Below are positions 41,854-60,382 of a stretch of 64,000 nt of DNA, piece after piece (position 1 is the first letter of the stretch; the number at the start of each line of letters is the position of its first letter). The DNA is from Octopus vulgaris. Taxonomy: Eukaryota. The stretch is taken from NCBI GenBank assembly GCA_951406725.2, contig OX597832.1, forward strand, positions 33,418,001-33,482,000, read 5' to 3'. The notes below the pieces were generated by a model, which saw only the letters and a program-made list of their open reading frames with translations, made no database searches and was not told the DNA's origin. Position numbers and translations under genes: made by a program.

Positions 41854-42263
41854 GACAGAGAAGTTATTGTAGGGAATGGTTTAGATGAGAGAGACAGTCA
41901 CTGGCTGACTATTCCATAACCTTTCAAATTCTAAGAAGAGAGGTTGGTCGCTATCTGACAAGGTAACATCTTTTAAAGGAACGGCTTCCTTCTTCTGCCG
42001 TATCTTCCAGGTGTAAAGTTCACTCACGCACGGACATATAAAAGCACAGATGAGGAAAGACAGAAAATGCACGCACTCATGCGAACGAGTTTGTGTGTGT
42101 GTGTGTGTGTGTGTATGTGTGCATGTGCAGTAAGATGTATGTGCGGAACTGAAGGAATTTTACGTGCGCGCGCATGCATCTGTTCAGAGAAATACACATG
42201 TACGCTTTTGTATATGCATGTGTATATATACATATACATAAAATATAAATTGTATATGTATGC

Positions 42264-42302
<39 letters not shown>

Positions 42303-42529
42303 GAAATTCATATGTGCACTGTGGATCGGGTCACCTTCTCTGTGATGCTATTAAGACTTTTTTGAAATTCTGTGATGCTATTAAGACTTTTTGAAATTCT
42401 GTAATAAGACTGTAAATCATCTTTAAAGAACTTTAATGAACTTTTGAAATCTGTTTATGTTATTTAATTATCTACATTACTTCATGAGTATAGCCTCAAC
42501 CACTAGGATGTCTAGAGAACTCACATGTA

Positions 42530-42620
42530 TTTTAGCTGATGAGTACGGGACATGTTTATATGCTGTAATTTTTGCAACTTTTAATAAAACCTGTCCTTGT
42601 ATGAAACGATCGTACTAAAA
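42530..42620 (+). ncRNA. Type I hammerhead ribozyme, intact core, palindromic helix III
   Basis: TTTTAG CTGATGA [GTACGGGACA..TGTCCTTGTAT] GAAA CGATC GTA CTAAAA; helix I is 6 bp and perfect; ACGATCGT palindrome. Confidence 0.8.
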
Positions 42621-42651
42621 ACCTATCCATTCTTGTTGCTTCATTCTCGCT

Positions 42652-42686
<35 letters not shown>

Positions 42687-42703
42687 TAGTATATCTATGT
42701 ATG

Positions 42704-42737
<34 letters not shown>

Positions 42738-42764
42738 AGTATATATATATATATACATATATAT

Positions 42765-42823
<59 letters not shown>

Positions 42824-43549
42824 TGTATGTATATATGTATGCACAGATATAGATACATGCATATCTGTAATTAGCATTCGGTCTCTTTCTCTCCTTCTCT
42901 CTCCTTCTCTCTCTCTCTCTCTCTCTCTGTATATATGCACACAAACGCATACATAAGAGGGCACACATACATGCACGAATATATGTATGCCCCTATATGC
43001 ATGTAGATACATGAGCAATCCATTGCACATGCACATAGAGATACAGTTATGTTTCATGGTGAACGATTATATACATGAAAAGATAACACAACGATAGAAT
43101 ATTATATAAGAAACTAAAGATTTTGGGAAGAATGTTTTGTTTTCACCTCTGCCTCCTCCATTAACAACATGTTCTCTTTTTTTCCTTTTACTAAATTTTT
43201 GGTTAAGGAACCTTACATCTTTTATCGGAATTTTATTTGATATGGAATTATCAGAGAAGTGCCACCGGTGCAACATTACGAGTCATTTCCTATATTGTGT
43301 TGTCAGAGGATGAGAAGAAAGGAAAGTTAGAACAACGTGTATCAATCGTTGAAGAATTGTTCCTCAAGCTAAGAATCGTTTATTGATGCAATTTGGTAAG
43401 AAGAGGTGAGCCAGGGTAGAAAAAGGGAAGACGAAAAAAAAAATACGCAGTAACGACGGTGCAACATGCTCGTAACACTACCCACGCATACAAACTGATA
43501 TCTCTTCCCTTGTATGTAAAGCGAATGCGATGTGTGTGAGAGTGTGTGC

Positions 43550-47082: not shown

Positions 47083-47165
47083 GGTAGCGTGGCCAACCGG
47101 TCTAAGGCGCTGGTTTAAGGAAACCAGTCACTTCGGAGGCGTGGGTTCGAATCCCACCGCTGCCA
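47083..47165 (+). tRNA. tRNA-Leu(AAG)-derived gene, probably a variant or pseudogene (8-nt anticodon loop)
   Basis: GGTAGCGTGGCC..GGTCTAAGGCGCTGGTTTAAGG..GTGGGTTCGAATCCCACCGCTGCCA is nearly the metazoan Leu-AAG sequence; acceptor and T arms intact; AAG at 47117-47119. Confidence 0.85.
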
Positions 47166-47234: not shown

Positions 47235-47784
47235 CTGCCCTGTTGCAGTCGCAACCATTGGCTTTTGTGGCTTCTCATCTTAACTGCTTTAAAGTGCTAT
47301 CTTGTAAATTTTTTTGTGTAAAAGTGGGACTACAGCAAATATGCTGCTCAAAACCAAAGATTTGCTTGTCAGTTGTTTGACCTTAACCGGTTGAGAATGT
47401 CACTTGGTGGTTGACGATGTTTGCATCTCTAATCACGAACTGAAGTAGTGGGGGAGCATCATAGTCATGTGTTGAGAGGGATTCTTTGGGGTTTGAATAA
47501 TTCACCTATGGAAACATGGGTGTTTCGTTCAACATCCTTAAACAATCCTTATTCAGGGACCTTTTCAGCGGGATGGGCTACTCGACCAGAAGAAAATTCT
47601 AAATGTGCCCCACCCGCAAGTTCATGTTCTGTTTATCTTGATATGAAATCACCACGTCGTGCACACATCGTTGTGATGCATGCGCCTAGTGTACCCTTAT
47701 CAGACGTGTAGCCATGATGGGTATAGTGGGCTTCGTATATTTTACCCCAGTGTCACTTTGATGACATGCACTGCTCTCTCACTC
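47235..47784. mobile_element. Element Y, copy 3 (full length, diverged)
   Basis: Colinear with 53271-53830 from TGCCCTGTTGCAGT to CTGCTCTCTCACTC. Confidence 0.88.
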
Positions 47785-53234: not shown

Positions 53235-53830
53235 ATGCCCTGATGCAGTAAATGCCCTGATGCAGTATAAATGCCCTGATGCAGTACCAGGCAGTGGCTC
53301 TCATGGCTTCTGATCTTAACTGATTGGAAGTGTTATCATGTACATTGTTTTGTCTTGGTATAAAAGATGGGCTACAGCAAATATTCTGCTCAATACCACA
53401 GATTTGCTTGTCAGTTGTTTGACCTTAACCAGTTGAGCATGTCCCTTAGTGGCTGACGATATGTGCATCTCTGATCACGAGCGGAAGTAGTGGGGGAGCA
53501 TCATAGCCATGTGTTGAGAGGGATTCTATAGAGTTTGAATAATTCACCTCTGGAAACATAGGTGTTTCGTTCAACATCCTTAAACAAACAACCCTTATTC
53601 AAGGACCTTTTGAGCGGGATGGGTTACTCGACCAGAAGACAATTCTAACTGGGCCCCACCTGCAAGGTCATGTGCTGTTTATCTTGATATGAGATCACCA
53701 TGTCGCGCACATATGGTTGTGATGCATGTGCCTGGTGTACCCTTATCAGACGGGTAGTCATGATGGGTATACTGGGCTTCGTATATTTTACCCCAGTGTC
53801 ACTTTGATGGCATGCACTGCTCTCTCACTC
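53235..53830. mobile_element. Element Y, copy 4 (full length, triplicated left end), inside (AAT)n
   Basis: ATGCCCTGATGCAGTA three times at the left end; (AAT)n on both sides; no meaningful ORF. Confidence 0.9.
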
Positions 53831-59880: not shown

Positions 59881-60074
59881 CTTGCGCTCCGATATATGCG
59901 TTTATATCTATGCCTGCTTTGCATATTGACATTTGTGTAAGCATGTACTCGGAAAATACGCATCTACTGCATTTATGAAGCCTATCACATCATACCTTAG
60001 ATAGATATACAGTCACGTCTCTCTCCCTATTTATATATATGTGTGTGTGCACACACATATACATACATACATTC

Positions 60075-60382
60075 CTTCTTTCTTTCTCAAAAGCTGTCAT
60101 TACTTTCGAGACAGTACTTCTTGATACACCAAATATTTCGGCTGTTTTCTTTACACTAGCGCCTGCCATACGAGCACCAACAATTTGACCTCTTTGAAAG
60201 TCCGATAGATCTGTCATTTCAATGAATTTTCATTACCTTTTTCTGATGGTAACTGAAAAGAAACATCAATCTTAGCAACACATATCAAGCATAAAAATAA
60301 GCAAGCTTTTGACGGTTCTATAGATATTTCAAAAGTATTATGCTAAGATGCTAGGTATTTCCATCAATTTGTCAAACCCTTG
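60075..60382 (-). mobile_element. Tc1-like transposon 5' end (TIR and N-terminal HTH)
   Basis: MTDLSDFQRGQIVGARMAGASVKKTAEIFGVSRSTVSKVMTAF; TIR-like CAAGGGTTTGACAAATTGATGGAAATACC beside (TA)n. Confidence 0.88.

What the first reader, a model, noticed from the sequence alone, without database searches (positions are those of the whole stretch)
42530..42620. Intact plus-strand hammerhead with long helix II and ACGAUCGU palindrome
Seen: perfect 6-bp helix I (UUUUAG/CUAAAA), CUGAUGA at 42536-42542, a 60-nt helix II domain, GAAA at 42603-42606, 8-nt palindrome, GUA with predicted cut after 42614, and (TA)n about 35 nt later. The 10.1-11.1 pair is G-U instead of G-C, which may slow it. Known: a palindromic helix III is typical of PLE hammerheads that cleave as dimers. 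The long helix II is unusual for minimal PLE motifs (inference).
Basis: partly seen in the sequence, partly recalled or inferred. Interest (0 to 1): 0.72.

Follow-up and report, generated by a model that had tools for sequence, protein, structure and literature searches.

The report
Long-stem hammerhead ending a high-copy retroelement
This is a complete hammerhead ribozyme motif near the end of a highly repeated element that sits between (TA)n tracts; it is likely the tail of a Penelope-type jumping gene and is predicted to cut RNA only when two copies pair, and its one unusual trait is a 60-base stem that hides it from standard searches.

Summary
Rfam misses it. It lies 36-37 nt before the 3' end of a roughly 350-bp stretch between (TA)n tracts. 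That stretch belongs to a high-copy family: 1930 and 491 contig pieces in two large runs. No variant is listed at 42602, so the G·U pair is the family norm, not decay; G·U also occurs in 8 of 56 published motifs of this class. Folding predicts a poor monomer (+4.8 kcal/mol) and a favourable dimer through the palindrome (-5.2), which longer flanks disfavour. One contig carries a double change that keeps the palindrome. The layout matches Hydra-clade Penelope-like elements (PLEs). No reverse transcriptase or GIY-YIG frame was found, so PLE membership is inferred. There is no partner copy in the window and no sign of tandem repeats. The 60-nt helix II domain exceeds those in both published tables I read (longest 23 and 53 nt). 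Verdict: a long-stem variant of a known kind; cleavage untested; modest interest.

The parts
42223..42297 (.). Upstream TA-rich microsatellite (perfect (TA)n 42267-42296); likely insertion target
42299..42651 (+). Copy of a high-copy dispersed repeat; likely the 3' end of a Penelope-type element. The family's 5' boundary was not determined
   Evidence: 1930 contig pieces in X3, 491 in X8, 45 in X1, 2 in X6; no second copy in the window
42339..42402 (+). 30-bp tandem duplication (2.2 copies), rare in the family
   Evidence: summed depth drops over 100-fold here in X3, and the X6 full-span contig lacks 28 nt
42530..42535 (+). Helix I, 5' arm
   Evidence: no variant listed
42536..42542 (+). Catalytic core C3-A9 (CUGAUGA)
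   Evidence: no variant listed
42543..42602 (+). 60-nt helix II domain, predicted 23-bp interrupted hairpin closed by G10.1·U11.1
   Evidence: variants at 42552, 42553, 42566, 42570, 42596
42603..42606 (+). Core G12 A13 A14 and A15.1
   Evidence: no variant listed
42606..42613 (+). 8-nt palindrome: 2-bp helix III with tetraloop as a monomer, 8-bp duplex as a dimer (predicted)
   Evidence: variants at 42608 and 42611
42612..42614 (+). GUA triplet; predicted cut 3' of 42614
   Evidence: position follows from hammerhead numbering (established knowledge)
42615..42620 (+). Helix I, 3' arm
   Evidence: no variant listed
42621..42651 (+). 3' terminal segment of the element; other copies also run into (TA)n after 42650
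   Evidence: table 7: 5 X3 contigs continue into (TA)n; 1 X1 contig continues 139 nt into other sequence
42652..42840 (.). Downstream (TA)n microsatellite

Best explanation
This is a complete type I hammerhead motif 36-37 nt from the 3' end of a high-copy repeat lying between (TA)n tracts, likely the 3' terminal repeat of a 5'-truncated Penelope-like element (or a non-autonomous derivative), and it is predicted to cleave after 42614 only when two copies pair through the palindrome. Shown: the motif, the high-copy family, the shared 3' end at (TA)n, family-wide G·U closure, and one contig with a palindrome-keeping double change. Computed: helix III does not form in the monomer, and a two-copy hammerhead is favoured for the bare motif. 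Inferred: in a tandem parent element two terminal repeats on one transcript would pair their palindromes into an 8-bp helix III, swap helix I arms and cut the precursor into unit-length RNA, probably slowly and with help from the element's protein. Also inferred: this copy was laid into a (TA)n tract by target-primed reverse transcription that stopped early. Lacking a partner, it would be largely inactive. The long helix II folds back on itself and would leave the core geometry unchanged. The Hydra clade is the closest architectural match, but the clade is not established.
For: Motif and chance. Family: (1930 pieces in X3, 491 in X8, the latter labelled as another organism). No variant is listed in the 33 positions of core, helix I and closing helix II. 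Of 7 variant positions inside the motif, 6 are compatible with the fold: 42566 turns U·G into C-G, 42596 and 42611 give G·U, 42553 and 42570 are unpaired, and 42608 occurs with 42611 in X1 record 8, keeping an 8-nt palindrome (same depth 73.6, one contig). Energies: monomer hammerhead 4.8 kcal/mol above the MFE with P(helix III) about 0; dimer hammerhead 5.2 below two monomers and within 0.7 of the best dimer fold. The 42608 change alone destroys this (+6.8) and the double change restores it (-6.6). Literature: palindromic helix III, dimer action and mostly single truncated copies (PMC4209133). Hydra-clade PLEs insert in (TA)n and have 3-4-bp near-palindromic helix III; 10 of 24 families with a 3' hammerhead end 30-48 nt after the cut (worked out by hand from PMC8557442 files S1/S2). 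One PLE hammerhead cleaves only with the element's protein present (PMC11167929).
Against: No RT or GIY-YIG frame was found: 0 of 188 screened stop-to-stop peptides hit such a Pfam family (188 of 423 peptides >=60 aa, low-complexity ones dropped). The short frame at 42299 found no real relative. No full-length element could be recovered. The lack of variants in the 33 constrained positions is not significant on its own (P = 0.18, or 0.11 in the well-covered part). Both palindrome changes sit at CpG sites and could be methylation decay, and the double change rests on one contig. 42552 breaks a predicted pair in 4% (X3) and 30% (X8) of depth. With 30 nt or more of native flank the dimer hammerhead is no longer favoured (+1.8 to +4.8 against two monomers; 7-11 kcal/mol above the best dimer fold). 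(TA)n tracts are common here (67 in the window; 4% of positions lie within 40 nt upstream of one). 14 of the 24 Hydra families end 63-355 nt after the cut. In vitro, PLE hammerheads are slow even as dimers.
Confidence: 0.7

Rival explanations
1. The stretch is a solo monomer of a non-LTR retrozyme: a 300-500-nt non-coding unit, elsewhere in tandem arrays, that is cut out by its hammerheads and circularised.
For: The size (about 325 bp without the duplication) and a 2-bp helix III with tetraloop resemble axolotl HHR_Amex2 repeats and mussel 350-390-bp repeats (PMC7229834). No coding link was found. Solo monomers are common, and retrozymes derive from PLE terminal repeats (bioRxiv 10.64898/2026.07.22.740005), so the two readings overlap.
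Against: No joint that returns to the start in any of 4 runs; a 645-nt X6 contig holds the stretch once; X3 loose ends run into (TA)n. No second copy in 64 kb. Helix II is not the canonical 4-bp stem. A unit longer than about 490 nt would escape these tests.
Confidence: 0.15
2. The hammerhead belongs to a short non-PLE retroelement (SINE-like, as with the schistosome Sm-alpha elements), whose whole length is about 325 bp and which favours (TA)n.
For: Both ends abut (TA)n and summed depth falls toward 42299; no ORF was found.
Against: No tRNA-like head in the stretch. Some contigs run over the ends of the stretch: X3 record 9 by 23 nt and X6 record 17 by 174 nt upstream. The fall in depth can be an edge effect.
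Confidence: 0.07
3. The motif is an efficient monomeric ribozyme, in which the long helix II docks on helix I or its flanks and makes up for the weak helix III.
For: The long helix II is kept across the family, with structure-compatible changes. A 2-bp helix III gave 22% cleavage in an hour as a monomer in axolotl Rtz_353.
Against: P(helix III) is 0.00-0.02 in all variants, and with flanks helix I is also lost. Tertiary contacts cannot be computed here.
Confidence: 0.06
4. A chance arrangement in a repeat, with no ribozyme ancestry.
For: No Rfam hit; the MFE is not the hammerhead fold; conservation alone is not significant.
Against: 0 of 1000 shuffles; the position near the 3' end, the palindrome and the GUA all match PLE hammerheads.
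Confidence: 0.02

Closest known systems
Hammerheads of Hydra-clade Penelope-like elements (Craig et al. 2021, PMC8557442, file S2; e.g. Penelope-1_SK, Penelope-13_HM, Penelope-15_HM, Hydra-1_oBim)
   Same: Type I topology; 3-4-bp near-palindromic helix III starting AC; cut after GUH (often GUA); (TA)n flanks; 3' end 30-48 nt after the cut in 10 of 24 families; G·U at 10.1-11.1 in 2 of 25 families (by eye).
   Different: The helix II domain is 60 nt, against short hairpins in these rows. The motif is not that of Hydra-1_oBim. No linked ORF was found.
Minimal and palindromic hammerheads of metazoan PLE terminal repeats (Cervera and de la Pena 2014, PMC4209133)
   Same: Palindromic helix III, predicted dimer action, mostly solo copies; G·U closure in 8 of 56 listed motifs.
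   Different: The longest helix II domain in Fig. S3 is 23 nt; most have an extra base after A9, which this motif lacks; helix III here is longer than in the minimal form.
PLE-X1_sMoe hammerhead (spike moss; PMC8557442 file S2)
   Same: A long helix II domain (53 nt by the table), so a long stem II has a precedent in a PLE.
   Different: A plant, rDNA-targeting element flagged as deviating from the canonical structure; no perfect palindrome.
Animal non-LTR retrozymes (PMC7229834; bioRxiv 10.64898/2026.07.22.740005)
   Same: Similar unit size, type I hammerhead, 2-bp helix III with tetraloop, better cleavage as dimers.
   Different: Defined by tandem arrays and circular RNA; neither was seen here, and circularity could not be tested.
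Naiad PLEs of octopuses (Naiad_Obim, Naiad_Ovul, Naiad_Omin)
   Same: (TA)n insertion preference; Naiad_Ovul is flagged 'HHR_half_core'.
   Different: Their 3' ends, read by eye, do not resemble this stretch, and four short motifs of this stretch had no match in the held part of that supplement.

Membership tests
Type I hammerhead ribozyme | Core CUGANGA, GAAA and NUH in order | tested here: met
   no family variant listed at these positions
Type I hammerhead ribozyme | Three helices around the core, with the ends in helix I | tested here: met
   Helix I 6 bp, helix II predicted 23 bp, helix III 2 bp as monomer or 8 bp as dimer; the fold is not the MFE with native flanks
Type I hammerhead ribozyme | Scores on an Rfam hammerhead model | tested here: not met
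   likely due to the long helix II (inference). This is a detection criterion, not a biochemical one
Type I hammerhead ribozyme | Site-specific self-cleavage | not testable with these tools
   Only contigs were available; X1 record 7 spans the site unbroken, which neither shows nor excludes cleavage
Penelope-like element (EN+) | RT plus GIY-YIG ORF upstream of the terminal repeat, in this copy | tested here: not met
   expected for a 5'-truncated copy, but for this reason I do not file it as a proven member
Penelope-like element (EN+) | RT plus GIY-YIG ORF in full-length members of the family | not testable with these tools
   No genome is held; one search does not return the flanking letters of contigs that run over the ends
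Penelope-like element (EN+) | Hammerhead in the 3' terminal repeat, near the element's end | tested here: met
   Cut site 36-37 nt before the shared 3' end
Penelope-like element (EN+) | Dispersed multi-copy family with 5' truncation | tested here: inconclusive
   Multi-copy is met; depth falls toward the 5' side, but edge effects and the duplication confound it
Penelope-like element (EN+) | Tandem or partial-tandem copies giving pseudo-LTRs | tested here: inconclusive
   None in this window; one X1 contig continues 139 nt past the usual 3' end
Hydra clade of PLEs | (TA)n insertion and 3-4-bp near-palindromic helix III | tested here: met
   Naiad and Neptune also favour microsatellites
Hydra clade of PLEs | Clade-specific ORF motifs (RWK, DKT, CxCX5C, no CCHH) | not testable with these tools
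   No ORF was recovered
Non-LTR retrozyme | Head-to-tail tandem units, each with a hammerhead | tested here: not met
   No returning joints in 4 runs and no second copy in 64 kb; units above about 490 nt are not excluded
Non-LTR retrozyme | Circular or unit-length RNA | not testable with these tools
   No listed holder is on record as RNA, and only contigs are held

The most novel reading that the evidence does not exclude
This family represents a hidden class of Penelope-type hammerheads whose helix II is a conserved 60-nt structured module, invisible to Rfam and to published descriptors (core spacer 7-17 nt in Craig 2021, who noted eight 'half-core' cases with the second half 35-50 nt away). 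Hammerheads would then be more general in PLEs than now stated, and the long stem would be a functional handle, such as a docking site for the element's protein that switches cleavage on. Because many copies share the palindrome and this copy appears over-represented in a run guessed to be RNA, transcribed solo copies could also pair in trans and cut host transcripts.
Probability: 0.15. Interest if true: 0.6.

Novelty: new variant of a known kind. Interest (0 to 1): 0.28.

Why it matters
Hammerheads at the ends of Penelope-like elements are well known, so the basic finding is expected. Two things are of some use. A very abundant family keeps a 60-nt helix II that standard models miss, so counts of genomic hammerheads and claims that some PLE clades lack them may be underestimates. 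The family also offers natural variants (wobble and double changes in the palindrome) with which to test dimer cleavage and protein assistance.

Tried and rejected
No genome is held for this window, so copy number, full-length elements and flanks could not be obtained. Pattern scans: metagenome contigs gave 75 loci, none with similarity beyond 24 nt; viral contigs gave 0 twice; genome contigs gave 0. The other 17 CUGANGA sites in the window do not pass the descriptor, except 53453 at the loosest setting only. The frame starting at 42299 looked, from memory, like the tail of a GIY-YIG domain. A word-indexed search gave 38 candidates and no hit at E <= 10, and the Atlas gave a 0.75 chance-level hit. 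The single phmmer hit P0001 (E 8e-19) is a translated 92-aa tandem repeat whose score sums 11 weak matches; I rejected it. So that frame is neither shown to be coding nor excluded. A 3' splice site at the end of the helix I 5' arm, as in Drosophila virilis Penelope, found no support: no joints, and X1 record 3 spans it unbroken. No RNA holder is on record; this is no evidence on expression. Summed depths are not copy numbers. Lunse et al. 2017 (PMC5785218) is not held; I know it only by title and through a review's passage. Three look-ups of earlier findings gave nothing by sequence or place and one analogous report from another genome. The repeat scan of the window returned only microsatellites.

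Full report
Observation. The motif is exactly as described: helix I 42530-42535 with 42615-42620, core 42536-42542, a 60-nt helix II domain 42543-42602 closed by G·U, GAAA 42603-42606, palindrome 42606-42613, predicted cut after 42614, and (TA)n from 42652. With a descriptor that allows long helix II, 0 of 1000 shuffled windows contained a motif as good; 3 and 65 of 1000 passed looser settings. The strict setting was fixed after seeing the motif. Rfam does not detect it, and the unconstrained fold of the region is unremarkable (z -1.65).

Context. The window is a microsatellite-rich, mostly non-coding eukaryotic sequence. It looks cephalopod-like to me, which is a guess from memory and was not tested; no genome is held. 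The motif lies at the 3' side of a stretch, 42299-42651, between two TA tracts, with a 30-bp internal duplication. There is no second copy in the window. Of 423 stop-to-stop peptides of 60 aa or more, 188 passed a complexity filter. None of the 188 hit an RT or GIY-YIG family in Pfam.

Family. Twenty of 24 listed runs hold the stretch or part of it, under three organism labels. I laid 4 of them: 1930 contig pieces in X3, 491 in X8, 45 in X1 and 2 in X6, most at 90-99% identity. It is therefore a high-copy family with subfamilies, abundant under at least two labels; depths are not copy numbers. Five X3 contigs run from 42650 into (TA)n, so the 3' end is shared; one X1 contig continues 139 nt into other sequence. 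No joint returning to the start was listed. Seventeen variant positions were listed in 353 nt. None falls in the 33 positions of core, helix I and closing helix II, though this alone is not significant (P 0.11-0.18). No variant is listed at 42602, so G·U is the family state. Of 7 variant positions inside the motif, 42566 strengthens a pair, 42596 and 42611 give wobbles, 42553 and 42570 are unpaired, and 42552 breaks a pair next to an internal loop. 42608 appears with 42611 in one X1 contig, keeping a perfect palindrome. Both of those sites are CpG, so decay is an alternative, and the double change rests on one contig.

Mechanism. Folding puts the monomeric hammerhead 4.8 kcal/mol above the MFE, with helix III essentially unformed. 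Two copies paired through the palindrome give a double hammerhead 5.2 kcal/mol below two monomers and within 0.7 of the best dimer. The 42608 change alone abolishes this (+6.8) and the natural double change restores it (-6.6). With 30 nt or more of flank, competing hairpins win (dimer hammerhead +1.8 to +4.8 against two monomers), so efficient cleavage would need co-transcriptional folding or a protein. This agrees with the low activity of PLE hammerheads in vitro (PMC4209133, parts 1-2 of 4 of the text read) and with the protein-assisted cleavage of the Anolis Poseidon hammerhead (PMC11167929, parts 1-2 of 4 read). That paper also found cleavage not needed for insertion in vitro. I infer that the parent element uses paired terminal-repeat hammerheads to cut tandem precursors. 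I also infer that this copy is a truncated insertion in a (TA)n tract, probably inactive for lack of a partner. Cleavage itself is untested.

Comparison. In Craig et al. 2021 (PMC8557442: abstract, passages, section 11, supplement parts 1, 2, 24, 52 and 53 of 59, the file being cut), Hydra-clade PLEs insert into (TA)n and carry hammerheads with a 3-4-bp near-palindromic helix III. By hand from files S1/S2, 10 of 24 families with a 3' hammerhead end 30-48 nt after the cut (this one 36-37) and 14 end further away; 2 of 25 have G·U at 10.1-11.1. In Cervera 2014 Fig. S3 (supplement 2, parts 1-2 of 3), 8 of 56 motifs have G·U there by eye, and the longest helix II domain is 23 nt. File S2 of Craig has one of 53 nt. 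These tables came from descriptors that limit stem II, so they under-sample long stems. The octopus Naiad 3' ends and the Hydra-1_oBim hammerhead differ from this stretch. Retrozymes (PMC7229834, parts 2-3 of 6; bioRxiv 10.64898/2026.07.22.740005, parts 1-3 of 5) match in size and helix III but are defined by tandem arrays, not seen here. PMC6765202, PMC6155905, PMC13282606 and PMC8967140 were seen as passages only; the last two have no occurrence of 'ribozyme'. Lunse et al. 2017 could not be read, and its variants, the unread supplement parts, one unsearched supplement file of PMC4209133, Repbase and Dfam may already hold this family or long-stem forms. Nine paper searches showed no description of this motif; that is weak evidence of absence.

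What failed. The link to a PLE protein could not be made: collection scans gave only chance 17-mers or nothing, and the short frame at 42299 gave no hit or an artefact. I therefore say it works like, and likely derives from, a PLE terminal repeat, without filing it as a proven member.

A side observation. In X1, guessed to be RNA, letters that are rare in the family but present in this window copy make up 39% of depth at 42553 and 100% at 42463. In X3 and X8 they make up 0.02-0.05% and 0.4-1.2%. This locus or a small subfamily may be transcribed, but the run type is a guess and contigs cannot show strand or ends.

Verdict. A real, family-conserved, dimer-type hammerhead motif of a known kind, with an unusually long helix II. 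Interest 0.28.

Noticed in passing
window 42416-42650 (run X1): Letters rare in the family but present in this copy (42463, 42553, the 30-bp duplication) are strongly over-represented in a run guessed to be RNA, which hints that this locus or a small subfamily is transcribed; contigs span the predicted cut unbroken.
   Followed up: partly
window 42649 onward (X1 record 8): A divergent subfamily with the double change in the palindrome continues 139 nt past the usual 3' end into non-(TA)n sequence; it could be the body of a longer element or a flank.
   Followed up: no
window 42530-42536: The 5' arm of helix I reads like a 3' splice site, recalling the intron that ends at helix I in Drosophila virilis Penelope; no spliced form was seen.
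   Followed up: partly
window 42299-42373, +: A 25-codon open frame, broken after the 30-bp duplication, loosely recalls the tail of a GIY-YIG domain (from memory); three protein searches gave no real relative.
   Followed up: yes
window 47083-47165, +: tRNA-like gene ending in CCA, with an 8-nt anticodon loop and no assignable anticodon, right after a long (AAT)n tract; likely a pseudogene or SINE head.
   Followed up: no
window 59993-60229, -: 79-aa frame with a helix-turn-helix match (HTH_23, E 8e-08), likely a fragment of a Tc1/mariner-type transposase.
   Followed up: no
window 53453-53570, +: A second, weak hammerhead-like arrangement (93-nt spacer, 2-bp stem II) passes only the loosest descriptor; similar sequence occurs near 47410-47500, so it is probably part of another repeat and a chance match.
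   Followed up: partly
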